A DNA stretch of 64,000 bases from Bacteroidetes bacterium RIFCSPLOWO2_12_FULL_37_12 (GCA_001769655.1 MEPC01000042.1:93125-157124), one strand, 5' to 3'; positions 1 to 47,025 are shown, numbered from the stretch's first letter. Notes: generated from the sequence alone by a model not told the origin. Numbers and translations: made by a program.

Positions 1-3000
1 CCTGTTTTTTCTTCAATTCAAAAAGATGATTTTCCTGCCGTAAAAGCTCGTTTTCTTTTTCTTTTTTATCGGTCTCATATCGTGTTTGCATGTCGGCTAT
101 TTGCTTGTTGGATTCTTCGTTAAAGATGTTGTCTTTTACCTGTGCGTATAATTTGTGATAGGTGTAGGCGGATTTCCAGTTGGAGAGGGTGCTGTCTAAG
201 TGAGATAAACCCTCGTAAACGAGCATTAGTACTTCTTTCGCTCCGGTTTCTTTTGAGAATTGTAGCCCTTTATTTAGGCATTGTCTTGATTCTTTATACT
301 TTTTCTGTTCCGTATTTATTTGCCCAATATTGTAATAAGAACCAGCCATGCCATTTTTATTGCCAAGCTCTTCACTGATTGATAAATCTTTGAAATAAAA
401 TTCTATCGCCTTGTCGTAGTCCCTTTTATCAGCATAAATATTACCTATGTTACTGTACGTTTCAGACATTCCTTTTTTATCTCCGAGTTTTTCTCTTATA
501 GATAATGATTTGCCATAAAACTCCATTGCCATATCATAATCGTGGCTTGCTTTTACACTATCTCCAATTTGACGAGATTTATCTCCTTTATTTTTGTGAA
601 TGATACCGATGTTGTTGTAAGACATAGCTATTCCACGTTTAGCCCCAAGTTCTTTAAAAATAGATAACGCCTTGAAATAAAGCGTAAGTGCTTTATCGTA
701 TTCGTTTTGGCTTTTATAAATAATACCTATATTGATATAAGCACTAGAAATTCCTTTTTTATCTCCGAGTTCTTCATATATCGTTAATGCTTTGTATAAA
801 AACTTTAGTGCCATGTCGTAGTCGCCTTTATTTTTGTAAATTGAGCCAATGTTATTGTAAGAAGCAGCCATTCCATTTTTATCTCCAAGCCCTTTATTTA
901 TATAAAGTGATTTGAAATGATACTCCAGCGCAATGTTGTAATCACTTTTATGATTGTAAACATTGCCAATGTTGTTGTAAGAATCAGCTATTCCCCTTTT
1001 ATCTACGAGTTCTTCTTTTACTGATAATGCTTTGAAATAAAACTTCAACGCTTTATCGTATTCTCCTTTATCAGAAAGAATAAGTCCTATGGAAAGATAA
1101 GAATTAGATATTCCCTTTTTATCGTTTAGTATTTCTTTTATATTCAAAGATTTTAAAAAAAATTCTATCCCCTTTTCATAGTTGCCTCTTTCAGCATGAA
1201 TAACTCCAATGTTTTGGTAAGACATTGAAATTCCCTGTTTATCTCCGAGTTCTTTATATATAGTTAATGATTTAAAAAAAAAATCTATTGCCATTTTGTA
1301 TTCTCCTTTATATTTATGAATAATGCCGATTTTATTGTAAACAGTGGCTTTTTTATTATTGATGATGTATGATTGATTATTTTTTACCGAAAGAAGTTTG
1401 TCGCAAAGGATTAACGCTTCATTTGCATATTCCAGTGCCTGTTCGTAATTACCGGTGTTGGTTAATTCGGAGGTGAGCTGGTTGAGGAGATTAATCCGGG
1501 CAGTGTCACCGGAGATGCCATTTAGAGCGTCTGTGCGTGCCAGAAGGGATTTGAGGGAGTCGGCTTTGGAAGAGCCAATTTTAATGTCACCCTGTTGAGG
1601 TGTACGGCGATTGCTACGAGTAGTGTCACCAGAGAATGATGCAAGGATTAATGAAAGAAAAATAAAAAACAAGAAGGATCCTGTTTTACTTTCGGTAGAA
1701 ATAAGGGACGGTGATAATTTTTTTTCAAGCAAATTGTGTAATGGAAAAATAACCCCCGCAAGCAAGACGTTGAAAAACAATTTCAACAAAGGTTCACCGC
1801 CGGTAAATTTCTCCAGATTGGGATCTAATAAAACCAAGATGAATTCGAAAAATATAAGAAACGAAATAAAAAGAGATGCCTCCGTAATTTTTATGTAGGT
1901 TAGATTTTTACTATGTTCCATTGATTTACCAAACCTTCTGGCAAACAGGAAAATTCCTATAAACAACACAAATAATGTCAAGCCAATGCCGGAGTATTGC
2001 AGCATATTCCGCCTTTGGATTTTTTCCAGTTCCTCGCGTTCTTTTTCTGTTTTTTGCTTTTCTTCCAATACACGGATATTTTTTTTCTGTCTCAAGAGTT
2101 TGTTTTCTCTTTCTTTCTTATCCGCTTCATACCGGGTTTGCATATCGGTTATTTGCTTGCTGGATTCTTCGTTGAATATGCTGTCTTTGACTTGAGTGTA
2201 TAATTTGTGGTAAGTGTAGGCGGAATTCCAGTTGCCGAGGGTGCTGTCTAAGTCCGATAACCCGATATAAGCGTTCATAAGAAATGCTTTCATTCCATTC
2301 TCTTTGGAGAGTAGGACGCATTTGTTTAACCAATGCCTTGATTCTTTATATCTTTTTAATTCGGTATTTATTTGTCCGATATTATTGCAGGAAGCAGTCA
2401 TCCCTTTTTTATCCCCTAATTCTTCTTGCATAGACATTGCTTTGAAATAATATTTTAATGCCTTGTTGAGGTTGCCTTTATAAGCATGAACATTAGCTAT
2501 GTTGTTATAAGAATTTGACATACCATTTTTATCCCGGAGTATTTCATTAATGGATAACGCTTTGAAATAACATTCTAATGTCTTGTTGAATTCGTTTTTA
2601 TACGCGTGAATACTTCCTATATTGTTGTAAGAAGCGGCAATTCCTTTTTTATTATCTACTTCTTTATAAATGGATAATGCTTTTAAATAATATTCCAGTG
2701 CTTTGTTGTAGTCACTTTTATACGTATGAATATTAGCAATATTGTTATAAGAATCTGATACCCCGTTTTTATTTCCAAGTTTTTCGTAAACTAAAAGGGC
2801 TTTTAAATAAAACTTCAATGCCTTGTCGTAGTCGCTTTTATCAGAATAAATCATGCCCATATTATTATAAGCCGTGGCTTTATTAATATTAATAATTGCC
2901 GATAAATTATTTTTTGTAGAAAATAATTTTTCACAGAGAATTACCGCTTCATCTGCATATATCATAGCTTGCCCGTATTCGCCGGCGTTAATTAATTCAG

Positions 3001-3229
3001 CAGTGAGCAGGTTGAGGAGATTAATCCGGGTAGTGTCACCGGAGATGCCCTTTGGAGCGTCTGTACGTGCCAGAAGGGATTTGAGGGAGTCGGCTTTGGT
3101 AGAGCTAATTTTAGTGTCACTCGTCTGAGGCGCACGACTGCTGAGGCGGGAAGTGTCACCGGAGAATGATAAAGGTGCAAATGAAATGGAAACAAGAAAA
3201 AAGAGGATGGTACAGGAGAAATTTTTCAT
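1..3229 (-). CDS. Large TPR-repeat membrane protein, 3' end beyond the window start. It contains two tandem modules, each with a hydrophobic leader, an SGDT-rich segment, TPR repeats, a charged coiled coil and TM helices.
   Basis: I reverse-complemented and translated by hand from the ATG at 3229-3227 down to position 1 and found no stop. The second module (about 1650 to below 1) repeats the first (3229 to about 1650) at 80-90% nucleotide identity. The ORF track omits it because it runs off the window edge. Confidence 0.6.
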   Translation of the reverse strand, partial: MKNFSCTILFFLVSISFAPLSFSGDTSRLSSRAPQTSDTKISSTKADSLKSLLARTDAPKGISGDTTRINLLNLLTAELINAGEYGQAMIYADEAVILCEKLFSTKNNLSAIININKATAYNNMGMIYSDKSDYDKALKFYLKALLVYEKLGNKNGVSDSYNNIANIHTYKSDYNKALEYYLKALSIYKEVDNKKGIAASYNNIGSIHAYKNEFNKTLECYFKALSINEILRDKNGMSNSYNNIANVHAYKGNLNKALKYYFKAMSMQEELGDKKGMTASCNNIGQINTELKRYKESRHWLNKCVLLSKENGMKAFLMNAYIGLSDLDSTLGNWNSAYTYHKLYTQVKDSIFNEESSKQITDMQTRYEADKKERENKLLRQKKNIRVLEEKQKTEKEREELEKIQRRNMLQYSGIGLTLFVLFIGIFLFARRFGKSMEHSKNLTYIKITEASLFISFLIFFEFILVLLDPNLEKFTGGEPLLKLFFNVLLAGVIFPLHNLLEKKLSPSLISTESKTGSFLFFIFLSLILASFSGDTTRSNRRTPQQGDIKIGSSKADSLKSLLARTDALNGISGDTARINLLNQLTSELTNTGNYEQALEYANEALILCDKLLSVKNNQSYIINNKKATVYNKIGIIHKYKGEYKMAIDFFFKSLTIYKELGDKQGISMSYQNIGVIHAERGNYEKGIEFFLKSLNIKEILNDKKGISNSYLSIGLILSDKGEYDKALKFYFKALSVKEELVDKRGIADSYNNIGNVYNHKSDYNIALEYHFKSLYINKGLGDKNGMAASYNNIGSIYKNKGDYDMALKFLYKALTIYEELGDKKGISSAYINIGIIYKSQNEYDKALTLYFKALSIFKELGAKRGIAMSYNNIGIIHKNKGDKSRQIGDSVKASHDYDMAMEFYGKSLSIREKLGDKKGMSETYSNIGNIYADKRDYDKAIEFYFKDLSISEELGNKNGMAGSYYNIGQINTEQKKYKESRQCLNKGLQFSKETGAKEVLMLVYEGLSHLDSTLSNWKSAYTYHKLYAQVKDNIFNEESNKQIADMQTRYETDKKEKENELLRQENHLFELKKKQ

Positions 3230-3299
3230 ATCGTCAAAAAATATAAAATCAAATATCTAATATCCAAACGTGAACGAGTCACAACCAAACAAGAAAAAA

Positions 3300-3395
3300 A
3301 TAAATAACATATAACATATAACACAAAATGAATAATAAAAAGTGAGGGGAAACCTTTAACATTATTCATTTTTTGTTATATGTTATATGTTTTTA
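3300..3395. repeat. Intergenic palindromic element, copy A: 31-bp inverted arms AACATATAACATATAACAcAAAATGAATAAT with a 24-nt loop.
   Basis: Arms at 3306-3336 and 3361-3391 are reverse complements with one mismatch. Related copies lie at 4775-4868 and 55890-56045. Confidence 0.6.
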
Positions 3396-3454
3396 ATAAT
3401 AATTTGAAACAATAATATTTTGCCATAATTGGTTGAAATATTTTTGATAAGATG

Positions 3455-24293: not shown

Positions 24294-27200
24294 TCACGAA
24301 CATCCCATACTTGCCCCGCAGTTCAAACATTTATAGCAAACACCGGAGCGTACGGTAATATGTCCGCACTCATGGCAAGCCGGAGCATCGCCGCTCATGT
24401 TGCTTAAATATTCCTGAGTAGAAACAGCTACCGTCTGAGTTGCCGGTTGAAGAGTAGTTTGCGCTTTTAGCTTTTTAGATGGATTGGCATTACCATTTGT
24501 ACCATTTTCGGGTGTATTTTCAAAATTCTCTTCTAAGAAATTTTCAATCTCATCGTTTGTAGCTGTAGGGCTATCGGCAATCTGCTGTGCCATTTCCTGT
24601 GGTGGCACTTGTACCAGATCCGTGCGGTTCAAGTACTCAAAGGCGAGTAACCGGAATACATAATCAACTACGGATGTAGCTGATTTAATATTGGGATGCT
24701 CCACCATTCCGCATGGTTCAAAACGGGTGAAAGTGAATCGTGACACAAATTCTTCCAGAGGAACTCCGTATTGTAATCCTAATGACACAGCAATCGCAAA
24801 ACAATTCAGTATCGAACGGAAGGAAGCCCCTTCTTTGTGCATATCAATAAAAATTTCACCTAAGGTTCCGTCTTTATATTCACCGGTACGCACAAAAAGT
24901 GTCTGCCCTGCAATTTTCGCTTTTTGTGTAAACCCTCTTCGTTTAGAAGGCAATACCTGACGGATACTTGATAATTGATGATGAAAATCTGTATTGGATG
25001 TTTCTTTAATAAATTTCTTAGCCGCTTCCAATACTAATTCAGGAGTTAAATCGTTTACGCTGACTTCATATTTTTCCGCTTTACCGTTTTCACTTTCCTT
25101 TTTATCCGATTTGTTGGATAAGGGTTGAGAAAGTTTGCAACCATCACGATACAATGCGTTGGCTTTTAATCCTAATTTCCATGAAAGTTCATAACAACTT
25201 CTTATATCATCAACGGTGGCTTCGTTGGGAAGATTTATAGTTTTAGAAATAGCACCCGAAATAAACGGTTGCACTGCCGCCATCATGCGTATGTGAGCAT
25301 GGGGTTCTATAAATCGCTTTCCAATCTTACCGCATTTATTAGCACAATCAAAAATAGGATAATGTTCTTCTTTCAAGTGAGGCGCTCCTTCTACAGTCAT
25401 GGTTCCGCAAACGTAATTATTTGCCTGCTCAATCTGATAGTCACTGAAACCAAGTTGTTTTAACAAATCAAAATCAGGATTCTGATATTGTTCGGGTTTG
25501 AAACCAAGACGCTTCAGACAATCTTCTCCTAAAGTCCAAACGTTAAAAGCAAATTGAATTTCGAAAGCGGAAGGTAAATTTTTCTCCGCTTTTTCAATGT
25601 CTTCACGGGCGAATCCTTTGGCTTTAAGCGATTCATGATTGATATGTGTGCTACCGGCAAGAGTCCCTTTTCCTACCACATATTTAATGATGTCATCAAT
25701 TTCGTATGATTTATAGCCGATAGTTTTTAATGCCTTTGGAATGGATTGATTTATTATTTTAAAATAACCGCCTCCGGCAAGTTTTTTAAATTTCACCAGC
25801 GCAAAATCCGGTTCCACTCCGGTGGTATCACAATCCATAGCCAGTCCAATGGTGCCGGTAGGAGCAATGACGGTGGTCTGTGCATTCCTGTATCCGTACT
25901 TTTCGCCCAACTGAACGGCTTTGTCCCAGGCGTTGGTAGCGGCTTTTAACAAATAATCCGGACAGTATTTAGGGTTAATCCCAACTGCCGGAATAGACAA
26001 TCCTTCGTAAGCATCCGTGGCGTTATATGCCGCAAAGCGGTGATTTCTCATCACCCTCATCATGTGGTCTTTATTCTTTACAAAACCTTTGAAAGTTCCG
26101 ATTGAGTGCGCCAATTCCGCACTGGTTGCATACGCTGTTCCGGTCATAATTGCAGAAACGGCTCCCGCAATGGCAAATGCCTTGTCACTGTCATAAGGAA
26201 TACCTGAAACCATAAGCACGGTTCCCAGGTTGGCAAACCCTAATCCTAAGGTTCTGAATTGATAGGATAATCTGGCGATTTCTTTAGAGGGGAAGTGAGC
26301 CATCAGCACTGAAATTTCAAGAACTGTTGTCCAGATTCTGCAGGCGTATTCAAAACCATTTACATCAAAGGTTAATTTTTCCTCATCAAAGAATTTCATC
26401 AGGTTCATGGAAGCCAGATTGCATGCAGTGTTGTCAAGGAACATATATTCGCTACATGGGTTCGATGCTTTGATTTTACCATCTTCCGGGCACGTATGCC
26501 ACTCCTGAATGGTTGTATCATATTGCACACCTGGGTCGGCACATGCCCAGGCGGCATTACAGATTTGATTCCAAAGTTCTTTAGCCGGAATTTTGCTCAT
26601 CACATGCCCATCGGTACGTGAAGTTGTTTCCCAGTCACCATTTTCTTCCAACAGTTTGAAAAATGAATGAGGTACGCGAACAGAATTATTTGAATTCTGA
26701 CCGGAAACCGTGATGTATGCCTCTCCTTCGTAATCGGATGGATAACCTGCATTAATAAGTGCGCCAACTTTTTTCTCTTCATTTACTTTCCAGTTAACAA
26801 AGCTGAGAATTTCTGGATGGTCTAAATCAAGGCAAACCATTTTTGCCGCTCTGCGGGTGGTTCCACCGGATTTTATAGCGCCTGCGGCTCTGTCCCCTAT
26901 TTTCAAAAAAGACATAAGCCCCGAAGAAGTACCACCGCCGGAAAGAATTTCGCCGGACCCTCTGATACTTGAAAAATTTGTCCCGACTCCGGAACCATAT
27001 TTGAAAATTCTGGCTTCACGAACCCACAAGTCCATGATACCCCCTTCGTTGACGAGGTCGTCATTGACAGATAGGATAAAACATGCATGGGGTTGTGGTC
27101 TCTCATACGCAGAAGTTGATATTTTCAATTCTTCGGTTTTAGGATCTACATAATAGTGTCCTTGTGGGGTACCCTTTATATTATAGGTGTCATACAAACC

Positions 27201-27626
27201 GGTATTAAACCATTGTGGGGAATTTGGAGCGGCACATTGACCCAAAATCATATATACCAACTCATCGTAAAATATTTTTGCATCTTTTTCGGTTGCAAAG
27301 TAATTATAGCGTTTACCCCAACTCATCCAGCAATTAGCCAGACGATGGGCTACCTGTTTGAGGGAATTTTCGGAACCGGTTTTACCATTCGGTTGAGGTA
27401 CACCGGCTTTACGGAAATATTTTTGAGCCAGAATATCGGTAGCCACTTGTGACCATCCTTTGGGTACTTCAACATTATTCATTTCAAATACGGTATCTCC
27501 CGCAGGATTGCGGATGATGGAGGAACGATACTCATATTCAAATTGGTCGAATGGGCTTTTACCTTCCTGTGTAAAATACCTGTCGAAGCTCAGTCCCTTG
27601 CTTTCGGTTTTTGTTTTCTTAGCCAT
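24294..27626 (-). CDS. nrdJ: Adenosylcobalamin-dependent (class II) ribonucleotide reductase
   Basis: 1110 aa with the RNR barrel motifs (ACNLASMNL, NPCSEYMFLD) and a C-terminal Zn-ribbon (CHECGH..CYKCLNCG). Confidence 0.85.
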   Translation of the reverse strand: MAKKTKTESKGLSFDRYFTQEGKSPFDQFEYEYRSSIIRNPAGDTVFEMNNVEVPKGWSQVATDILAQKYFRKAGVPQPNGKTGSENSLKQVAHRLANCWMSWGKRYNYFATEKDAKIFYDELVYMILGQCAAPNSPQWFNTGLYDTYNIKGTPQGHYYVDPKTEELKISTSAYERPQPHACFILSVNDDLVNEGGIMDLWVREARIFKYGSGVGTNFSSIRGSGEILSGGGTSSGLMSFLKIGDRAAGAIKSGGTTRRAAKMVCLDLDHPEILSFVNWKVNEEKKVGALINAGYPSDYEGEAYITVSGQNSNNSVRVPHSFFKLLEENGDWETTSRTDGHVMSKIPAKELWNQICNAAWACADPGVQYDTTIQEWHTCPEDGKIKASNPCSEYMFLDNTACNLASMNLMKFFDEEKLTFDVNGFEYACRIWTTVLEISVLMAHFPSKEIARLSYQFRTLGLGFANLGTVLMVSGIPYDSDKAFAIAGAVSAIMTGTAYATSAELAHSIGTFKGFVKNKDHMMRVMRNHRFAAYNATDAYEGLSIPAVGINPKYCPDYLLKAATNAWDKAVQLGEKYGYRNAQTTVIAPTGTIGLAMDCDTTGVEPDFALVKFKKLAGGGYFKIINQSIPKALKTIGYKSYEIDDIIKYVVGKGTLAGSTHINHESLKAKGFAREDIEKAEKNLPSAFEIQFAFNVWTLGEDCLKRLGFKPEQYQNPDFDLLKQLGFSDYQIEQANNYVCGTMTVEGAPHLKEEHYPIFDCANKCGKIGKRFIEPHAHIRMMAAVQPFISGAISKTINLPNEATVDDIRSCYELSWKLGLKANALYRDGCKLSQPLSNKSDKKESENGKAEKYEVSVNDLTPELVLEAAKKFIKETSNTDFHHQLSSIRQVLPSKRRGFTQKAKIAGQTLFVRTGEYKDGTLGEIFIDMHKEGASFRSILNCFAIAVSLGLQYGVPLEEFVSRFTFTRFEPCGMVEHPNIKSATSVVDYVFRLLAFEYLNRTDLVQVPPQEMAQQIADSPTATNDEIENFLEENFENTPENGTNGNANPSKKLKAQTTLQPATQTVAVSTQEYLSNMSGDAPACHECGHITVRSGVCYKCLNCGASMGCS

Positions 27627-33736: not shown

Positions 33737-36736
33737 CTACTCCATGCTTCTGTAAATTACATCCATTATTTTTGTTCTTACATCCATTGTAATGAGTTTT
33801 TTATTTCCCACATCCGGATGCACCCGGTTTGATAGAAAAATGTAAACCAGCTCTTTATCGGGGTCAACCCAAACGCAGGTACCCGTGAATCCTGAATGTC
33901 CGAATGTATTGGTTGATGCAAGTTCAGAAGTGGGACCATTCCCTTTGGGTTCTTTTTTATCCCAGCCCAATGAACGCCTGCTTACCGGGGTCTTGTAAGA
34001 GTAAAATTCTTTTACTATTCCTTTATTAAAATATCTTCTTCCGCCATAATAACCGTCCTGCAAATTCATCTGCATTAAGACGGCTAAATCATGGATGTTA
34101 GAAAAAAGACCGGCATGACCGGCAATTCCTCCCTGCATCGCGGCACCAGGATCGTGAACAGTGCCACGAATCAATTCTCTGCGGAATACAGTATCCATCT
34201 CTGTTGGCGCCATTCTGTCAAGTGGAAATTTTTTCAACGGATTGTAACCAAGGGTGGATAATCCCAATGGATTATAAAAAGTTCTGGTTAGAAAATTTTC
34301 CATTGGTTCGTAGAGAATATTTTCAACGGCTTTCTTCATGATTTGAAAACCAATGTCACTATAAACATATTCTTTCTTTCCGGTAACGGGAGAATTGATT
34401 GTCCATTTCCAAACGGAATCAGGTAATGAAGGAATCCCTTTCAAAGAGGAAGAAACAGAAATGCCGGAATTTATAGTGTCACCGGAAGGAAAATAAAAAA
34501 CGGGAGATATTTTTCCGGTTTTTTTATCGAGTGTATTTTTCCAATATTCCAGGTAGGCGGGCAACCCGGACTGATGGGTGAGAATATCCACAATTTTCAA
34601 GGTATCTTTATTCGTCCTCTTTAATTCGGGAATATAATAGGAAACGGGTTTGTTCAGATCAATTTTATCTTCGCTTTTCAGATACATAATTGCCTGCAGT
34701 GTGCCTGCCACTTTTGATACAGATGCTATATCATATAACGTGTTTGGTGTCACCTTTTCGAGCGAATCATACGCAGTATATCCAAAACATTTTTCAAAGA
34801 CCACCAACCCTTTTCGTGCCACAAGAACCTGAGCGCCGGGTGTGGCTTTGTTTTTTATGGCATCGTTTGCAATACTATCAATTTTATTAAGACACACTGA
34901 GGACATTCCCACTTCTTCAGGATATCCAACCCGTAATCGTAAATTACTGTTTGTTTTAATTCCCGTTCCATACGAAAATTGCGGAGAGGCAGTAACCGGA
35001 AGCGTTCCCTTTACACCCATAGCGCCAAATAATATCTGAGGAGCTATCTGCCGGGTGTAGTCATTATCCTCATAAGAAAGTAAAAGCCAATGAAAATTTT
35101 CGAGTAGGGTCAAGGCGTAAGGAGTTCCAAACAATACTATGATGACGCGGGTTTTTTGATTCAATTCCTCAAGCATGCTCAATAAACGTTTATCCATTCC
35201 AAAATCCCTGCTTTGAATTTTACCAATCCTGTGTAATCCTACGACCACTACATCAAAATCATCAAGCATGTGCTTCAACGAATCATACGCTATATCAGCA
35301 TCATTTTTCTTCAGTGTAAAATGTGAAAATGGTGCATAATGAGTGAGGGTTTGCTGAAATAAATTTCCTTCCGGAGCGCCTGCAGAAAGAGAGGCGAAAC
35401 GAAAGGTCTCTGGAGATTGAACCGGAAGGAAATCTTTTTCATTTCTGACAAGGGTTTGTGCATCTTCATATAACTGGCTCGCAAATATTTTAGCAGTGGC
35501 ATTATTAAGATTATTAAAAAGATTAGTATCGGGAATGGTTTGTTTTCGTTTTAACCCACACCAATATTTGAAATACAATATTTTTCTGACACTATTGTCT
35601 ATATCCTCACGAAGTAGTGTTCCGTCAGCAACGGCATTACAAATTTCTTTTATGGCAAGAGGGATATTCTCCGGATAAAGCAATACATCGTTGCCTGCCT
35701 GTAATGCTTTTACTTCTAATTTTCCAGGTTCAAAATATTTACTGACTGCTTTCATGTTCAGGGCATCGGTAAAAATCAAACCCTGAAATCTCAATTTATC
35801 TTTTAACAATTCACAAACCACGTTTTCGGAGAGCGTAGTAGAGGAAAACGCAGTAGAATCCATGGTGGGAATATGAAGGTGTGCCACCATCATGCTCATA
35901 AGTCCGTGGTTTATTAATTTCCGAAAAGGAAATAATTCTAAGGAATCAAGACGTTTTACATCATGATTAAGCAGAGGAAGTTCAACATGGGAATCAGCGC
36001 CCGTGTCACCGTGTCCTGGAAAATGTTTTCCATTCGCAATAATGCCATTTTGCTGAAGACCTTCCATATAGGCATACGCTTTATCAAAGACCTCCTCGCG
36101 GGATTCGCCGAAGGAGCGGTCACCAATCACCGGGTTCAGCGGATTACTGTTTATATCAGCAACGGGAGCAAAATTTACATGAATGCCAAGCATTTTGCAC
36201 TGGGATGCAATTTCTTTTCCCATTTCAAAAATTTTACGATTATCATTGATGGCACCCAGTGTCATTTGTCTGGGAAAACTGAGTGTGCTGTCGAGGCGCA
36301 TCCCCAAACCCCATTCTCCATCAATGGAAATAAGCAAAGGAACATTGGAAATTGCCTGCCAACGATTTGTCAATTTTACCTGACGCACAGGTCCCCCCTG
36401 AAAAAAAATCAATCCCCCGATTTTATAATCCCTTATCAGCGAATCAATTTTGAGATTAAATTTTTCGTCTCGGTTAGAATACGCCGCAACCATAAATAAT
36501 TGCCCTATTTTTTCTTCCTCACTCAACGTATTAAAAACACTGTCCACCCAAGGGTGATTTAATTGGGGTTTGAAAAGATTTTTCAGAGTGGATGTATCAG
36601 CGGAATAAGGCATTTGTTCCCATGAAATAATATCCCTGCGTTTTGGTTGGTGAGTTATTTTTTTGGGTACCTTGCAATGAATGAGCAGAAACGTAAAAAA
36701 TAGCAATAAGAAATATTTTGTCTTCTTAAAATTCAT
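33737..36736 (-). CDS. GH3 (NagZ-like beta-N-acetylhexosaminidase) fused to a class C beta-lactamase/PBP-like serine hydrolase; lipoprotein
   Basis: GH3 motif KHFPGHGDTGADSHV in the N-terminal half and the beta-lactamase SxxK motif (ASVSKVAGTL) in the C-terminal half. The probable start is the Met at 36736 (MNFKKTKYFLLLF..IHC); the track's 36802 start is a TTG inside a hairpin. Confidence 0.7.
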   Translation of the reverse strand: MNFKKTKYFLLLFFTFLLIHCKVPKKITHQPKRRDIISWEQMPYSADTSTLKNLFKPQLNHPWVDSVFNTLSEEEKIGQLFMVAAYSNRDEKFNLKIDSLIRDYKIGGLIFFQGGPVRQVKLTNRWQAISNVPLLISIDGEWGLGMRLDSTLSFPRQMTLGAINDNRKIFEMGKEIASQCKMLGIHVNFAPVADINSNPLNPVIGDRSFGESREEVFDKAYAYMEGLQQNGIIANGKHFPGHGDTGADSHVELPLLNHDVKRLDSLELFPFRKLINHGLMSMMVAHLHIPTMDSTAFSSTTLSENVVCELLKDKLRFQGLIFTDALNMKAVSKYFEPGKLEVKALQAGNDVLLYPENIPLAIKEICNAVADGTLLREDIDNSVRKILYFKYWCGLKRKQTIPDTNLFNNLNNATAKIFASQLYEDAQTLVRNEKDFLPVQSPETFRFASLSAGAPEGNLFQQTLTHYAPFSHFTLKKNDADIAYDSLKHMLDDFDVVVVGLHRIGKIQSRDFGMDKRLLSMLEELNQKTRVIIVLFGTPYALTLLENFHWLLLSYEDNDYTRQIAPQILFGAMGVKGTLPVTASPQFSYGTGIKTNSNLRLRVGYPEEVGMSSVCLNKIDSIANDAIKNKATPGAQVLVARKGLVVFEKCFGYTAYDSLEKVTPNTLYDIASVSKVAGTLQAIMYLKSEDKIDLNKPVSYYIPELKRTNKDTLKIVDILTHQSGLPAYLEYWKNTLDKKTGKISPVFYFPSGDTINSGISVSSSLKGIPSLPDSVWKWTINSPVTGKKEYVYSDIGFQIMKKAVENILYEPMENFLTRTFYNPLGLSTLGYNPLKKFPLDRMAPTEMDTVFRRELIRGTVHDPGAAMQGGIAGHAGLFSNIHDLAVLMQMNLQDGYYGGRRYFNKGIVKEFYSYKTPVSRRSLGWDKKEPKGNGPTSELASTNTFGHSGFTGTCVWVDPDKELVYIFLSNRVHPDVGNKKLITMDVRTKIMDVIYRSME

Positions 36737-36780
36737 CGTTGTAAAAGTACTGAATTTTTTCTCCGTTTTCATTAAAAAAA

Positions 36781-36822
36781 ACCTCCCCCAGCCCCTCTCC
36801 AAAAAAATGGAGAGGGGTGAAC
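36781..36822. repeat. GC hairpin element CCCCAGCCCCTCTCC-A7T-GGAGAGGGG, copy 1
   Basis: A 9-bp perfect stem with an A-rich loop. A near-identical copy lies at 37141-37180. Confidence 0.6.
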
Positions 36823-42858: not shown

Positions 42859-45800
42859 GTGACACCCTCCGTTTCCACTCATTGCCCCTACATTGGTTTA
42901 CGTCCATACCGTGAAGAAGAATCCCTTTATTTTAAAGGACGCGATTCCCACATCCTGGAAATCCTGGAAATGATTAAGCAGGATAATTTCATCATGATGA
43001 CAGGGGCATCGGGCGACGGGAAAACATCGTTGGTAAAAGCAGGAGTCATTCCTGCATTGAAAGCCGGATTAATCAATACGCAATTCAATAATTGGATCGT
43101 TGCAAGTTTCCGTCCCGAAAGAAATCCGCTGGGTAACTTTGCCAAAAGTTTATCCAACGCTCTCGGATATCAGACCCCTGAGAGCGTGGAATCATTAATG
43201 GGGTATGGTTTTTCCTCCCTTTGCAACCTCTACAAAAATTCGCCTTTCTATGTAGATGAAAAAAGTGATTCATTTCTTTCACTAACTCCCGAAGAAAAAA
43301 AGAAAAAACAACATCAAGCCGCCAATCTGTTGATTTTTACCGACCAGTTTGAAGAGTTTTTTACAAACGTGGAAAATTATACCGAAGGAATTCCATCCGT
43401 AAATTCGCAAACCGTTATAAATCTATTGCTTGAAACCAAAAAACTTGCAAAGGACGAAAAACTTCCCATTTATATTCTGTGTACCATGCGATCCGACTAT
43501 ATGGGATCTTGTGCCGCTTTTCCCGGATTGCCCGAATTAATTCATCGTAATCATTACTTCGTTCCCCGTCTTAAAAGAAACGAATTGATGAAAGCCATTA
43601 AGGAGCCCTGCCTGCTTACCGGTTATTCCATTACCGATCGCTTAGTGGAGCGATTGATTTTTGATTTGAAAGAATGTATAGAAATTCTTCCCGTTTTGCA
43701 ACATGTCTTGTATCAAATCTGGCATATTGCTTCCTTAGAAAACGTACCCATGGACCTGATTCATTATGCCATGGCAGGTGGAATGCCCAAAGTGGAGCTC
43801 CCTCAGGAAGATCAAGTCACTTTTAAAAATTGGTTCGCAAAACTTCCGGAATACAAACGTCTGCTGTTTGAGAATCCATCCATTGGAAATGTGCTGGATG
43901 CCCATGCTTCAGAATTATTTGAAATCGCACATAAAAGAACTTCTACTCAAGCGCCGGTGGGCGAACAACTTTCCAAACATATTATCCGGGTTGCTTTTAC
44001 TTGTCTTACCCGCATGGATAATGGAAAAGCTGTGAGAAACCGTGTGACGATCAAAAATATTGCTGAAATGGTGGATTTGCCGGGGGTTGACCACAGAACC
44101 ATTGGCAGAGTTCTGAATAACTTCAGAGAACAAGGCAACACATTTATTCAGCCATTTATTTATGATTTGGATCAAACCATCGTTGAAGTGTCACTCAAGG
44201 AGGAATTAGTAAAACCGGATATCATACTCGACATCACGCATGAAGCATTAATCAGAAATTGGAGTTTGCTGCGAGATTGGGTGGACAAGGAACAGGAAAG
44301 CGTAAAAATATATATAGACCTTGAAAACCAGCTTGACCGTTGGGTAAAGAACAGTAAAAAGAAAGAATACTTGCTTGGGGAAGGAACATTGGAATATTTT
44401 TATCAATGGTTTCAAAACCAAAACCCTAATGCCGGTTGGATAAAAAGATACATGCTTGAAAGCAGAATAAAACTTTCAAAAGAAAAAGAAAAGTCCGGAG
44501 AAAACACCGAACTCACATCCACTAACGGAAATCATTCAACTCCCGATCTCACTAATACGCTTAACAACAAGGAAGAGCAGGATAGAATGAAATCAAAACT
44601 TGCCCGCTTGCGGTTACAAAACATCCGTGAGTTCCTGAGCCATAGCCGTAAAAATATTTCTTTCAAAAAAAATTTTACCAGGAGCACCATTCTTCTCATT
44701 TCATTTTTGCTGGTACTGTCCATCATTGGATTTATCAATGCCAATAAAGAGAGAACCAATGCCATTGAATCAAATAAAGTTTCAAGATCGAATGAACTTT
44801 CTTACAGGTCTTTTCTTACTGTAAATAATGACCCTACCATGGCGTTCCGTCTGGCAGAAGCCGCATATAACGTATATCCCGGGACGTATGCAAAGCAAGC
44901 TGTCATGGAATCGTTTATGAATCCTCCTTTTTACAAATTAATTTCAGGCCATTCGCATTATGTCACTAGTGGAATGTTTTCTACTGACGGACGATATTTA
45001 GTAACCGCATCCAATGATAAAAGCGTACGCCTTTGGGATATTTTTGGCAAACCTCAGGCGGTTATGATGCATGATGATATTGTAAAATCAGTACAATTTT
45101 CTCCCGATAATAAAAAAGTGCTTTCTTGCTCAGCCGACCGTACCATACGTCTATGGGATTTAAAAGGAAATGAAGTTCAAAAACTGACTGCTCATAACGG
45201 AGTGATTAATTCTGCGCAGTTTTCACCCGCAGGCAATTTTATTATTTCTACTTCTGATGACAGTACTGCCATCATCTGGAATATTATTAAACCCTTACGG
45301 ATACTCAAAGGTCATAAAGGTCCCGTTTTATCTGCATCTTTTTCACCAAATGCCCGGCAAATTGTTACCACTTCTTCTGATAACAATCTTATGCTATGGA
45401 CTTTTGACGGAGTTCTTCTTAAAACCTTAGAAGGACATACTGCGCCGGTATTGGGTGCCACTTTTTCAAACGATGGGAAATATATTTTAAGTTATTCCGT
45501 TGATTTTACAGCTAAATTATGGGGCATGAAAGGAAATCTGGTGGCTGATTTGAAAGGACATACCGCACCCTTAACCGGTGCCATTTTTTCGCCGGATGGA
45601 AGCAAAATTTTTACTTATTCAGATGATTTTTCTGGGATTCTCTGGGATTTTTCGGACAAACCCGGCAATGTATATGTACAATTACTTAATTTTTTTCAGG
45701 GGCATAACGGGAAAATTGTTTCTGCTTCTTTTGCAACCGATGGTGAAACTATTGCCACTGCTTCAGAAGACAATACCTGCCGGATTTGGAGCCAGAACGG

Positions 45801-47025
45801 AAACACGCTACACATATTAAAAGCAAATGACTTGTTCATGCTGGCTTTATTTACTCCCAATAGCCAGCGGGTTCTAACTACACATAACAGCGGCGCAATT
45901 AGAATATGGGATTTAACTCAAAAAGAAACCCGTGTGCTACGTAACCATGTAGAATATGTGTGGGATGTCACTGTATCCCAAAGCGGTAAATACATCGTTA
46001 CCTCTTCGTGGGATAATAATGCATGTTTATGGAATAACGCTGGTGAACTTTTAAAAACACTGGTAGGACACACCGATAAAGTATATTACTCTCTGATAAC
46101 TCCCGATGAACAATTTATCATCACTACTTCTTATGATAAAACCATACGGTTATGGAAAATGGATGGGCAATGCCTTCAGACATTATCCGGTCATACCGGA
46201 AATATTTATCAACCCCATATAACAGATGATGGAAAATTTCTCATCACTCCCAGTGCGGATAAAACAGCCATTGTCTGGCAGTTTATCAAAGAAGGTGACA
46301 CTAAATTATTGAAAAAATATGCCACACTCAGAGGGCACATTGGTAGAATTCGGGTTGCCCGTTTTTCTAATGACGGCCGTTTCATACTTACTGCCAGCGG
46401 CGATAACACTGCCCGCTTATGGGACCGTGACGGAAATCTGGTGCGAAAACTAACTGGTCACACTGCTGAGGTTTATACCTGTTGTTTTTCAAAGGATGGC
46501 GCCTATATTATTACGGGTTCATCGGATGGCACTGCACGAATCTATGATGGAATGGGAAATTTTCTGCAAATTCTTGCCGGTCATTCTGAAGGAATAAGCG
46601 ATGTGGTATTTATGCAGAATCAAAAATACATTGTGACTGTTTCTTCAGACCGCACAGGAATTATCTGGAACTTGCTCGGTAAAGATATTGCTCATTTGAC
46701 AGGTCATACAGATTTAATCAATACGGTGGAAGTGTCACCCGATGGGAAATACTTATTGACTTCCTCTGATGATCTTACAGCCCGTGTCTGGGATTTGGAT
46801 GGAAATGAAATCAATGTATTGAAAGGGCACAACGGACAGGTGCAGGAAGCCCATTTTTTCCCCGATGGAAAATCTGTCATCACTTGCTCAAAGGATGGCA
46901 CAGCACGCATCTGGCCTGTTTTTATAGAGGATGTATTCCGGAAAATCAATGATGAAAAATTCAGAGGTGATGTATGGAGTCCTAATCGTGCAGAAAGGAA
47001 GATATTTGGAATGGGGGTGAATTGA
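42859..47025 (+). CDS. STAND-class P-loop NTPase (NACHT/nSTAND-like) with one predicted internal TM helix and at least 14 C-terminal WD40 repeats
   Basis: N-terminal CPYIGLRPYREEESLYFKGRD, Walker A GASGDGKTS and Walker B IFTDQFEEFF. A TM segment STILLISFLLVLSIIGFI lies near aa 620. Repeats of the form GH..V....FSPDG..I.T.S.D.T.R.WD follow. Confidence 0.8.
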   Translation: MTPSVSTHCPYIGLRPYREEESLYFKGRDSHILEILEMIKQDNFIMMTGASGDGKTSLVKAGVIPALKAGLINTQFNNWIVASFRPERNPLGNFAKSLSNALGYQTPESVESLMGYGFSSLCNLYKNSPFYVDEKSDSFLSLTPEEKKKKQHQAANLLIFTDQFEEFFTNVENYTEGIPSVNSQTVINLLLETKKLAKDEKLPIYILCTMRSDYMGSCAAFPGLPELIHRNHYFVPRLKRNELMKAIKEPCLLTGYSITDRLVERLIFDLKECIEILPVLQHVLYQIWHIASLENVPMDLIHYAMAGGMPKVELPQEDQVTFKNWFAKLPEYKRLLFENPSIGNVLDAHASELFEIAHKRTSTQAPVGEQLSKHIIRVAFTCLTRMDNGKAVRNRVTIKNIAEMVDLPGVDHRTIGRVLNNFREQGNTFIQPFIYDLDQTIVEVSLKEELVKPDIILDITHEALIRNWSLLRDWVDKEQESVKIYIDLENQLDRWVKNSKKKEYLLGEGTLEYFYQWFQNQNPNAGWIKRYMLESRIKLSKEKEKSGENTELTSTNGNHSTPDLTNTLNNKEEQDRMKSKLARLRLQNIREFLSHSRKNISFKKNFTRSTILLISFLLVLSIIGFINANKERTNAIESNKVSRSNELSYRSFLTVNNDPTMAFRLAEAAYNVYPGTYAKQAVMESFMNPPFYKLISGHSHYVTSGMFSTDGRYLVTASNDKSVRLWDIFGKPQAVMMHDDIVKSVQFSPDNKKVLSCSADRTIRLWDLKGNEVQKLTAHNGVINSAQFSPAGNFIISTSDDSTAIIWNIIKPLRILKGHKGPVLSASFSPNARQIVTTSSDNNLMLWTFDGVLLKTLEGHTAPVLGATFSNDGKYILSYSVDFTAKLWGMKGNLVADLKGHTAPLTGAIFSPDGSKIFTYSDDFSGILWDFSDKPGNVYVQLLNFFQGHNGKIVSASFATDGETIATASEDNTCRIWSQNGNTLHILKANDLFMLALFTPNSQRVLTTHNSGAIRIWDLTQKETRVLRNHVEYVWDVTVSQSGKYIVTSSWDNNACLWNNAGELLKTLVGHTDKVYYSLITPDEQFIITTSYDKTIRLWKMDGQCLQTLSGHTGNIYQPHITDDGKFLITPSADKTAIVWQFIKEGDTKLLKKYATLRGHIGRIRVARFSNDGRFILTASGDNTARLWDRDGNLVRKLTGHTAEVYTCCFSKDGAYIITGSSDGTARIYDGMGNFLQILAGHSEGISDVVFMQNQKYIVTVSSDRTGIIWNLLGKDIAHLTGHTDLINTVEVSPDGKYLLTSSDDLTARVWDLDGNEINVLKGHNGQVQEAHFFPDGKSVITCSKDGTARIWPVFIEDVFRKINDEKFRGDVWSPNRAERKIFGMGVN

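What the first reader, a model, noticed from the sequence alone, without database searches (positions are those of the whole stretch)
1..3229. TPR gene of over 1000 codons formed by an in-frame tandem duplication of a TPR, coiled-coil and TM module
My hand translation of the minus strand from the ATG at 3229 is open all the way to position 1. Module 2 (about 1650 to below 1) repeats module 1 (3229 to about 1650) at 80-90% nucleotide identity. It includes a second signal-peptide-like segment (GSFLFFIFLSLILASFSGDTT) where module 1 has MKNFSCTILFFLVSISFAPLSFSGDTS. The two modules carry different numbers of TPR units, about 5 in the first and about 9 in the second. This is either a read-through fusion of two paralogues in which the second has lost its ATG (a TTG remains available), or a genuine duplicated-module protein.
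Basis: seen in the sequence. Interest (0 to 1): 0.55.

Follow-up and report, generated by a model that had tools for sequence, protein, structure and literature searches.

The report
Double-module TPR membrane protein gene
This is a real, uninterrupted gene for a 1187-residue Bacteroidota membrane protein made of two complete copies of a TPR sensor-like module joined head to tail, a layout that recurs in many relatives, so it is neither an assembly error nor a decaying fusion, and its function is still unknown.

Summary
The minus-strand frame from the ATG at 3229 stays open to position 1 (1076 codons). It contains two copies of one module: a signal-peptide-like segment, TPRs, a long helix and membrane helices.

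The two modules are 74% identical in nucleotides and 63% in amino acids.

Public assemblies carry the same gene as one 1187-codon ORF with a single stop. It occurs as three alleles with an identical junction. The 111 codons lying off the window encode only the second module's own membrane tail, and no extra output domain.

Module 1 is a complete member of an unnamed family. Single-module members end 10-20 residues after the same tail and often sit in tight tandem arrays. Among the best 156 relatives, 30 carry two tails and one carries three. The source MAG (Bacteroidetes bacterium RIFCSPLOWO2_12_FULL_37_12) alone has at least 8 double-module paralogues.

Both tails keep nearly all of the family's conserved tail residues, and dN/dS between the modules is 0.24. 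The fusion is therefore old, selected and recurrent.

I infer an inner-membrane protein with two periplasmic TPR domains, in which the second signal peptide re-exports module 2. The biochemical role is unknown. Interest is modest.

The parts
1..3229 (-). The part of the gene inside the window: codons 1-1076 of a 1187-codon ORF. The remaining 111 codons lie beyond position 1.
   Evidence: Open frame. Full length comes from the identical protein P0158/OFY68774.1 and from loci L010-L012.
3161..3229 (-). N-terminal signal-peptide-like segment of module 1 (aa 1-23, MKNFSCTILFFLVSISFAPLSFS).
   Evidence: Hydropathy peak 1.97. Relatives have classical signal peptides at this position, one with a lipobox and many with a small-x-small-Q site.
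2876..3160 (-). N-terminal helical cap of module 1 (aa 24-118), containing the conserved DSLK motif.
   Evidence: D47/S48 are nearly invariant in the family. Helices 44-105 in the AF2 model.
2276..2875 (-). TPR array 1: five 40-residue units (aa 119-318).
   Evidence: Pfam TPR_12 E=1.2e-103 and TPR_1 E=2.7e-80 for the whole protein. Unit register. pLDDT >90.
1997..2275 (-). Capping helices and stalk helix of module 1 (aa 319-411), with the KDSIFNEE motif and a charged coiled-coil-like stretch.
   Evidence: One continuous helix from aa 354 to 439 in the AF2 model. D349, K358 and E368 are nearly invariant.
1682..1996 (-). Membrane tail 1 (aa 412-516): TM2 followed by a two-helix hairpin. Family-invariant residues are Y412 S413 F454 F461 E462 L465 V466 D469 P470 P480 K483 L484 N487 F495 P496 H498.
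   Evidence: Tail HMM hit of 121 bits. 834 relative clusters. Invariant columns. No Pfam or PDB relative.
1718..1725 (-). A8 run in codons 502-504, just upstream of the junction. One extra A would end the frame at a TAA after 14 more codons.
   Evidence: Read. The run is identical in L010, L011 and L012.
1628..1681 (-). The junction: an internal signal-peptide-like or TM segment (aa 517-534, GSFLFFIFLSLILASFSG), the former N-terminus of module 2. Codons 514-515 (AGT AAA, window 1690-1685) align with the ATG AAA of module 1.
   Evidence: Internal linkers of the multi-module relatives listed carry one such segment after a K/R-rich stretch; five fall below the hydropathy threshold and were judged by eye.
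1346..1627 (-). N-terminal helical cap of module 2 (aa 535-628).
   Evidence: 68% identical to the module 1 cap, against 30-38% to the caps of paralogue P0160.
224..1345 (-). TPR array 2: nine 40-residue units, one with a 14-residue insertion (aa 629-1002).
   Evidence: Helical hairpins 619-1014 in the full-length model.
2..223 (-). Start of the module 2 stalk helix (aa 1003-1076). The rest of the stalk and tail 2 (aa 1077-1187) lie off the window.
   Evidence: Alignment to the module 1 stalk. P0158 sequence, with tail 2 at aa 1086-1181 scoring 108.7 bits.

Best explanation
SHOWN. The region is the first 1076 codons of one genuine 1187-codon gene (GenBank OFY68774.1, annotated as a hypothetical protein). 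It comes from an uncultured groundwater member of the Bacteroidota. The protein is two complete, diverged copies of one module joined head to tail in frame.

Each module has these parts in order: a signal-peptide-like segment, a helical cap, a TPR solenoid (5 units in module 1, 9 in module 2), a helix of about 85 residues that runs straight into a transmembrane helix, and a conserved two-helix membrane hairpin. I call the last part the tail. It carries family-invariant Glu, Asp-Pro, Asn and His residues and matches no Pfam or PDB entry.

Single-module proteins of this family are the common form and often lie in tightly packed tandem arrays. Two-module and three-module chains have arisen repeatedly, and this genome has at least eight of them.

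INFERRED: ORIGIN. Two neighbouring paralogues were joined by loss of the stop codon and the start codon at a very short A-rich junction. This happened before the gene was itself duplicated. The periplasmic N-terminal parts of the two modules were later partly homogenised.

INFERRED: HOW IT WORKS. Each module starts and ends on the cytoplasmic side, because it has four membrane passages. Modules can therefore be concatenated without breaking the topology. After tail 1 ends in the cytoplasm, the former signal peptide of module 2 acts as an internal export or anchor segment and puts the second TPR domain back into the periplasm.

The result is one inner-membrane polypeptide with two different periplasmic TPR ligand- or peptide-binding domains in fixed 1:1 stoichiometry. 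By analogy with FimS and with the TPR-SpoIIE paralogues, which use the same input module, the TPR domains would be sensors. The signal would pass down the stalk helix into the membrane tail, which presumably acts through a membrane partner rather than through a cytoplasmic enzyme domain.
For: Real ORF. No stop in 1076 codons. Loci L010, L011 and L012 differ by 1 nt in 3229, share the same junction and A8 run, and have a single stop at codon 1188. Three alleles of the 1187-residue protein exist (P0158, which equals the window; P0008; P0159).

Module 1 is a complete family member. P0003, P0001 and P0002 end 10-20 residues after PLHxF(L/F)ExKL.

Tandem separate genes in relatives. L006 has five or more tail-type paralogues plus a SpoIIE-type one, with an ATGA overlap or a 1-nt spacer between genes. 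In L009 a stop is followed 182 nt later by a new signal peptide.

Recurrent architecture. The tail query finds 834 clusters. In the top 156 proteins, 30 have two tails and one has three. They come from Cytophagales, Flavobacteriales, Bacteroidia, a record labelled 'Candidatus Amoebophilus asiaticus', and bacterium AH-315-C07. This MAG has at least 8 double-module genes.

Old fusion. Tail 1 is 60% identical to tail 1 of paralogue P0160, and tail 2 is 61% identical to its tail 2. Cross comparisons give 41-45%.

Independent fusions elsewhere. The two tails within one protein are each other's nearest neighbours in P0009 (93%), P0031 (93%) and P0017 (85%).

Selection on both modules. dN/dS is 0.24. 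Both tails keep nearly all of the conserved tail residues (P87 of the profile is Tyr in tail 2).

Homogenisation. The N-terminal caps are 68% identical within the protein against 30-38% between paralogues. dS is 0.46 there against 1.2-1.8 elsewhere.

Topology. There are eight hydrophobic segments. Internal linkers of the relatives carry a K/R-rich stretch followed by one hydrophobic segment. The hairpin loops are net acidic or neutral, and the presumed cytoplasmic loops are K/R-rich.

Structure. AF2 on module 1 gives pLDDT 86, with a TPR solenoid, a continuous stalk-TM2 helix and a hairpin. The TPR domain resembles the peptide-binding TPR domains of LGN/Pins and KLC.

Sensor analogy. FimS has TM1, eight periplasmic TPRs, TM2 and a kinase domain (PMC11053733). 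The NCBIfam FimS model hits at E=2.8e-92.
Against: No experiment bears on topology, expression or function. The periplasmic location of the TPR domains rests on signal-peptide-like features and on the FimS analogy.

The conserved RRN motif places positive charges on the presumed periplasmic side of TM2, so the positive-inside rule is not clean.

The full-length AF2 model has pTM 0.51 and low confidence in the linker (aa 507-553). It says nothing about how the two modules relate in space.

The tail has no relative of known function, so a role as a signalling output is a guess. The nearby SpoIIE genes are on the opposite strand or several kb away.

All near-identical copies come from one aquifer population. 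No syntenic orthologue from another species was found.
Confidence: 0.8

Rival explanations
1. Polyprotein. The fused gene is translated as one chain, but signal peptidase I cleaves after the internal signal-like segment (...LILASFS|GDTT). This would release two separate membrane proteins in equal amounts, so the fusion would be a device for co-expression rather than a two-domain protein.
For: The internal segment keeps the same c-region as the N-terminal one (SFS|GDT in both). Its uncharged run is of signal-peptide length, median 19 residues, the same as the N-terminal ones. Some relatives keep a small-x-small-Q site internally, for example P0027, P0044, P0135 and P0064, which matches the Bacteroidetes Q-rule for signal peptidase I substrates (PMC5837995). 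AF2 treats both segments as low-confidence, unpacked stretches.
Against: Many doubles have a different conserved ending, LNSGF, that does not look like a signal peptidase I site. The Q motif is rarer internally (4 of 47) than at N-termini (39 of 137). From my own knowledge, cleavage of internal signal peptides is rare in bacteria. There are no protein-level data.
Confidence: 0.12
2. Two genes after all. Module 2 is also, or mainly, expressed on its own from an internal start such as the TTG at codon 520, so the open frame between the modules is incidental.
For: An in-frame TTG lies at window 1672-1670, at the start of the hydrophobic segment. Some relatives retain Met-Lys or Met-Asn at the start of the internal segment (P0025, P0038), which are relics of start codons.
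Against: There is no stop before the TTG, so ribosomes translating module 1 must read through into module 2 regardless. A start at TTG 520 would give a signal peptide with no charged n-region. There is no sigma-70-like site and no Bacteroidetes TAnnTTTG motif near the junction or anywhere in the ORF. The K/R-rich linker and the junction are conserved as coding sequence in about 30 other multi-module clusters.
Confidence: 0.05
3. Artefact or pseudogene. A sequencing or assembly error, for example in the A8 run, or a recent stop-loss mutation joined two genes. The product would then be non-functional or not real.
For: An A8 homopolymer lies 25 codons upstream of the junction. One extra A would end the frame at a TAA, giving ...EKKIITVPYFYRK*. 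The family normally consists of separate genes.
Against: The frame as read gives EKKLSP after the tail, as in paralogue P0161 (HNLLERKLSP), and EKKLSG in P0160. The shifted frame gives a sequence without relatives. The junction is identical in the window and in three other public records of this gene; at least one of them, the MEGAHIT contig behind L012, is a separate assembly. The modules are only 74% identical, too diverged for repeat collapse. dN/dS is 0.24, and nearly all conserved tail residues are kept in both tails. The tails show positional orthology with a second double-module gene.
Confidence: 0.03

Closest known systems
Single-module TPR-stalk-tail proteins of Bacteroidota (unnamed family; e.g. 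P0003, 475 aa, and the L006 tandem array)
   Same: The order of parts is the same: signal peptide, DSLK cap, TPR_12-type repeats, KDSIFNEE stalk, RRNxLQYS transmembrane helix, and the FEFxLVxxDP / GGxP..KL..N...A..IFPxH...E hairpin. Tail identity to these proteins is 45-69%.
   Different: They carry one module of 450-600 aa and stop 10-20 residues after the tail. Here two modules are read as one chain of 1187 aa.
FimS sensor histidine kinase of Porphyromonas gingivalis (NCBIfam NF053520)
   Same: FimS has an N-terminal membrane segment, a periplasmic array of about 8 TPRs, then a second transmembrane helix (PMC11053733). The NCBIfam model hits at E=2.8e-92 through the TPR region.
   Different: The score of 310 bits is below the 600-bit cut-off. 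No HisKA or HATPase domain is present anywhere in the 1187 aa. The output here is a membrane hairpin, and the whole unit is doubled.
TPR-stalk-TM-SpoIIE (PP2C phosphatase) membrane proteins of Bacteroidota (P0004, P0005, P0007; the 699-aa gene in L006)
   Same: They share the signal peptide, the TPR array, the KDSIFNEE stalk motif and a single transmembrane helix. In L006 one of them sits inside an array of tail-type genes.
   Different: They end in a cytoplasmic SpoIIE phosphatase domain instead of the hairpin tail. No double-module form of this type was seen here.
LGN/Pins and kinesin light chain TPR domains (PDB 4wnd, 3ro2, 3nf1)
   Same: The TPR solenoid has the same fold (Foldseek E about 1e-12 to 1e-7, TM-score to target 0.5-0.8). 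These domains bind extended peptides in the inner groove.
   Different: They are eukaryotic cytosolic scaffolds with 16-24% identity, no membrane parts and no stalk. The resemblance says only that the domain is likely a peptide or protein binder.

Membership tests
TPR repeat proteins (Pfam TPR_12 / TPR_1 clan) | Tandem helix-turn-helix repeats of 34-42 residues that score above the Pfam gathering threshold | tested here: met
   TPR_12 scores 339.8 bits (cut-off 30.1) in 10 stretches. TPR_1 scores 261.6 bits. AF2 gives a helical hairpin solenoid with pLDDT >90.
Unnamed TPR-stalk-tail family (defined here from the tail profile) | A C-terminal membrane tail: RRNxLQYS transmembrane helix plus a hairpin with invariant F..FEF.LV..DP and P..KL..N...A..FP.H...E | tested here: met
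   Tail 1 scores 121 bits and tail 2 scores 108.7 bits against the tail HMM. All 16 invariant residues are present in tail 1. Tail 2 keeps E, DP, G.P, N, H and E but has Tyr in place of the Pro of FP.
Unnamed TPR-stalk-tail family | N-terminal signal peptide, then a DSL(K) cap, TPRs and a KDSxFNEE stalk ahead of the tail | tested here: met
   Both modules carry all of these parts in the same order.
FimS-type TPR sensor histidine kinase (NF053520) | Score at or above the curated cut-off of the equivalog model | tested here: not met
   310 bits against a cut-off of 600. The best stretch covers only profile positions 139-258, which is the TPR region.
FimS-type TPR sensor histidine kinase (NF053520) | Cytoplasmic HisKA and HATPase_c domains after TM2 | tested here: not met
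   No kinase domain was found in aa 1-1076 or in the off-window C-terminus, aa 1085-1187 (protein 2).
FimS-type TPR sensor histidine kinase (NF053520) | TPR array located in the periplasm between two membrane segments | not testable with these tools
   The arrangement of hydrophobic segments fits, but location needs reporter fusions or protease accessibility assays.
TPR-SpoIIE (PP2C) membrane sensors | C-terminal SpoIIE / PP2C phosphatase domain (PF07228) | tested here: not met
   There is no SpoIIE hit in the protein. SpoIIE domains occur only in neighbouring genes.
BT3442 family (NF053779) | Score at or above the curated cut-off | tested here: not met
   76.3 bits against a cut-off of 940.

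The most novel reading that the evidence does not exclude
The most novel reading not excluded is this. Chains of two or three modules are made as polyproteins or as covalent heterodimers. The internal signal peptide re-exports each following TPR domain. It is then either cleaved by signal peptidase I, giving equimolar separate sensors, or kept, locking two different sensors into one signalling unit. In either case the uncharacterised tail, with its invariant membrane-embedded Glu, Asp, Asn and His, would be a new kind of intramembrane output domain. That would make this a previously undescribed way for bacteria to build combinatorial periplasmic sensors from tandem gene arrays.
Probability: 0.15. 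Interest if true: 0.6.

Novelty: new variant of a known kind. Interest (0 to 1): 0.3.

Why it matters
The result settles the gene model. This is one 1187-codon gene and should not be split or flagged as a frameshift.

It also points to a large family in Bacteroidota with no name of its own: 834 clusters at the 50% identity level. The family pairs a FimS-like periplasmic TPR input module with a conserved membrane tail that has no Pfam or PDB relative. Its genes repeatedly fuse head to tail into chains of two or three modules.

The fusion is tolerated for a simple reason, which is inferred and not shown. Each module begins and ends in the cytoplasm, and the downstream signal peptide can serve as an internal export segment.

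If the tail proves to be a signalling or enzymatic unit, or if the internal signal peptides are cleaved, the family would be a useful model for how membrane sensors diversify from tandem arrays. As things stand, it is a tidy architectural observation about hypothetical proteins from uncultured bacteria, with no phenotype attached.

Tried and rejected
1. The word-indexed protein search with the 280-residue junction returned only 7 distant hits and missed the identical protein. The exhaustive representative search with the tail found it.

2. The scan of GTDB species representatives for the junction peptide found only distant relatives (30-38% identity), with no source genome and no syntenic orthologue. 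Whether the closest other species has one gene or two therefore could not be tested.

3. Pfam and PDB sequence searches of the tail and stalk gave nothing significant. The best hits were DUF2208 at E=0.0096, Sigma_reg_N at E=0.041, HlyIII at E=0.027 and a proteasome subunit at E=0.05. NCBIfam was run on the whole protein only and hit nothing in the tail. I reject all of these as chance matches.

4. Foldseek with the module 1 model returned only generic TPR solenoids. No hit explained the tail.

5. I ran AF2 on the full-length protein to test whether the two stalks and tails pack as an intramolecular pseudo-dimer. The result (pTM 0.51, low-confidence linker) is inconclusive, and the tool gives no contact information.

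6. Promoter and terminator scans found counts equal to the shuffled expectation. No TAnnTTTG motif occurs upstream of the ATG or inside the ORF. This is uninformative for Bacteroidota, apart from giving no support to an internal transcription unit.

7. I considered an A8 homopolymer frameshift and rejected it (see the rival explanations).

8. Literature searches found no paper on this MAG, and none combining tetratricopeptide, SpoIIE, Bacteroidetes and transmembrane; the internal-signal-peptide search returned two unrelated papers. No search targeted the tail family or multi-module TPR proteins as such.

9. The positive-inside rule does not give clean support for the topology, because the conserved RRN motif lies on the stalk side of TM2.
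Full report
**1. The observation**

Translating the minus strand from the ATG at 3229 gives 1076 codons without a stop, down to position 2. The nearest in-frame stop upstream is TAG at 3259-3257. No ATG, GTG or TTG lies between it and the ATG.

The protein falls into two parts that align with each other: aa 11-392 against aa 521-1076. The 120-nt direct-repeat families in the DNA are the 40-residue TPR units. Using the ..Y.N(I/M)G.. anchor, there are five units in the first part and nine in the second. One unit in the second part carries a 14-residue insertion.

The in-frame TTG is codon 520.

One figure is too high. The modules are 74% identical in nucleotides and 63% in amino acids over 382 aligned codons. 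They reach 82-93% only in two patches of about 150 nt.

**2. What lies beyond the window**

I searched a library of 1.84 billion representative proteins with the non-TPR membrane part of module 1 (aa 399-516). The search returned 834 clusters. The top hit, P0008, is a 1187-residue protein that matches the window ORF apart from one residue.

An exact-sequence look-up shows that its cluster mate P0158 is identical to the window ORF. P0158 is GenBank OFY68774.1, a 'hypothetical protein' of Bacteroidetes bacterium RIFCSPLOWO2_12_FULL_37_12, on a 318-kb contig. A third allele, P0159, also exists.

Three loci from other assemblies (L010, L011, L012) differ from the window by 1 nt in 3229. They have the same junction, including the A8 run, and a single stop at codon 1188.

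The 111 residues off the window are the rest of module 2's stalk helix and its own membrane tail (tail HMM 108.7 bits). No further output domain is present.

**3. Anatomy of a module**

The AlphaFold2 model of module 1 used 64 single-module relatives as its alignment. It has mean pLDDT 86 and pTM 0.66. It shows these features:

- a disordered N-terminus;
- a TPR solenoid (aa 44-351);
- one continuous helix from aa 354 to 439 that runs from the solenoid through the first membrane helix;
- a two-helix hairpin (aa 443-476 and 480-513).

The solenoid resembles the peptide-binding TPR domains of LGN/Pins and kinesin light chain.

Across the family the tail carries invariant or near-invariant residues: RRN.LQYS at the membrane entry, then F..FL..FEF.LV..DP and G.P..KL..N...A..IFP.H...E. 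It has no Pfam or PDB relative; NCBIfam, run on the whole protein, also hit nothing there.

**4. Module 1 is a complete family member**

The single-module relatives P0003, P0001 and P0002 end 10-20 residues after the PLHxF(L/F)ExKL motif. That is exactly where module 1 runs into the second hydrophobic segment.

In a 192-kb metagenome contig (L006), at least five such genes and one TPR-SpoIIE paralogue lie head to tail. Neighbouring genes share an ATGA stop/start overlap or are separated by a single base.

In L009 the closest single-module tail (69% identical) ends with a stop. A separate gene follows 182 nt later and begins with a new signal peptide and the DSLK cap.

So the ancestral state is separate tandem genes, and very small changes at A-rich junctions could join them. 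In the window, AGT AAA at codons 514-515 aligns with the ATG AAA of module 1. This fits a lost start codon (inference).

**5. The fused form is conserved and recurrent**

Among the 156 proteins retrieved, 30 have two tails and one (P0009, 1451 aa, partial) has three. Several more are double modules cut off by contig ends.

Named sources include a Cytophagales MAG, a Flavobacteriales MAG, Bacteroidia MAGs, a record labelled 'Candidatus Amoebophilus asiaticus', Bacteroidales bacterium AH-315-I05 and bacterium AH-315-C07.

The source MAG alone encodes at least eight double-module genes on several contigs: OFY68774, OFY71394, OFY70419, OFY71320, OFY72245, OFY69184, OFY71139 and OFY69838.

In some proteins the two or three tails are each other's closest relatives: P0009 at 93%, P0031 at 93% and P0017 at 85%. 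That points to separate, recent fusions or to concerted evolution.

In the protein studied here the tails are only 45-48% identical to each other. Tail 1 is 60% identical to tail 1 of the paralogue P0160, and tail 2 is 61% identical to its tail 2. The fusion therefore predates the duplication that produced these two genes.

The N-terminal caps show the opposite pattern: 68% identity within the protein against 30-38% between paralogues. Synonymous divergence is 0.46 there against 1.2-1.8 elsewhere. I read this as later gene conversion between the two modules (inference).

Overall dN/dS between the modules is 0.24, and both tails keep nearly all of the conserved tail residues; in tail 2 the Pro of the IFP motif is Tyr. 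Both halves are under purifying selection.

**6. Why concatenation works (inference)**

The full protein has eight hydrophobic segments.

N-terminal segments across the family look like classical Sec signal peptides. They have a Lys-rich start and an uncharged run of median length 19. In 39 of 137 cases they carry a small-x-small-Q site, which fits the Bacteroidetes Q-rule (PMC5837995). One has a lipobox.

With the N-terminus in the cytoplasm, the path of the chain is as follows:

- the TPR domain and stalk are periplasmic, as in FimS (PMC11053733);
- the next membrane helix returns the chain to the cytoplasm;
- the hairpin goes out and comes back;
- the module ends in the cytoplasm.

The internal linkers of the multi-module relatives follow one pattern: a K/R-rich stretch, then one hydrophobic segment, then the DSLK cap. 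In five linkers the segment falls below the hydropathy threshold and I identified it by eye. That is exactly what is needed to export the next TPR domain.

This explains why head-to-tail fusion is tolerated. It predicts one polypeptide displaying two different periplasmic TPR domains in a 1:1 ratio.

Two caveats apply. The conserved RRN motif puts positive charge on the presumed periplasmic side of TM2. The full-length AlphaFold2 model (pLDDT 75.8, pTM 0.51, linker below 50) does not show how the modules sit relative to each other.

**7. Function**

The same input module (signal peptide, TPRs, KDSIFNEE stalk, membrane helix) is joined to other outputs in related proteins. P0004, P0005, P0007 and a gene in L006 carry a SpoIIE/PP2C phosphatase. 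FimS-like proteins carry a histidine kinase.

I therefore take the module to be a transmembrane signal-input device. The tail would be an output that acts within the membrane, probably on a partner protein.

Three SpoIIE membrane or sensor proteins lie within 7 kb downstream of this gene. They are on the opposite strand or separated by unrelated genes, so the link is weak. The upstream neighbour is purD.

Function remains inferred, and no ligand or partner is known.

**8. Rivals**

- Homopolymer error. An error in the A8 run would give a shifted tail without relatives. The frame as read gives EKKLSP, shared with paralogue P0161, and the junction is identical across assemblies. I reject this.
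- Assembler collapse. It is implausible at 74% identity.
- Separate expression of module 2 from the TTG at codon 520. It cannot be excluded, but it would not prevent read-through, and no promoter motif supports it.
- Cleavage at the internal signal peptide. It remains open. The c-region SFS|GDT is the same in both modules. However, many relatives have a non-canonical LNSGF ending, and the Q motif is rarer internally.

**9. Novelty and verdict**

The gene is already in GenBank as a hypothetical protein. Its TPR part is ordinary and FimS-like.

Three things appear to be undescribed in the literature I could search:

- the conserved tail domain;
- the size of the family;
- the repeated head-to-tail concatenation into chains of two or three modules, with retained internal signal peptides.

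I class it as a new variant of a known kind, of modest interest. The inter-module identity and the expected extra C-terminal domain need correcting.

Noticed in passing
window 42859-47025 (+): A 1388-aa ORF combines an nSTAND1 NTPase domain (E=9e-65) with about 12 WD40 repeats forming two or more beta-propellers. This is a STAND-type signalling or possibly defence-related protein.
   Followed up: no
window 33737-36802 (-): A 1021-aa ORF fuses a glycoside hydrolase family 3 N-terminal domain with a beta-lactamase-fold (serine hydrolase) domain. It may be a cell-wall recycling enzyme fusion.
   Followed up: no
window 24294-27626 (-): A class II (B12-dependent) ribonucleotide reductase of 1110 aa has a C-terminal TSCPD domain.
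   Followed up: no
L010 11593-13932 (-), 16554-18047 (+), 18222-19564 (+); off the window, downstream of the TPR gene: Three SpoIIE/PP2C phosphatase sensor proteins cluster within 7 kb. One is a 779-aa membrane protein with a large unannotated N-terminal domain, convergent with the TPR gene. The others are a GAF-SpoIIE and a 7TMR-DISM-SpoIIE. The link to the TPR family is possible but unproven; L006 also mixes tail-type and SpoIIE-type TPR genes.
   Followed up: partly
L006 731-2107 (+): Four tandem 88-aa GIY-YIG domain genes repeat at a 370-nt period, just upstream of the TPR gene array in a relative's contig.
   Followed up: no
P0010, P0011, P0012, P0014, P0015, P0023, P0031 and P0046 internal linkers: A subgroup of double-module proteins shares a conserved ending of the internal hydrophobic segment, L(N/I)(S/T/Y)GF followed by (D/E)xK.DSL. 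This differs from typical signal-peptidase sites and suggests a dedicated linker helix in that subgroup.
   Followed up: partly
window 3230-3454: The 225-nt intergenic region between purD and the TPR gene is very AT-rich. It contains two copies of CATATAACATATAAC on opposite strands, i.e. an inverted repeat (seen). No sigma-70-like site on the gene's strand and no TAnnTTTG motif was found in it.
   Followed up: no
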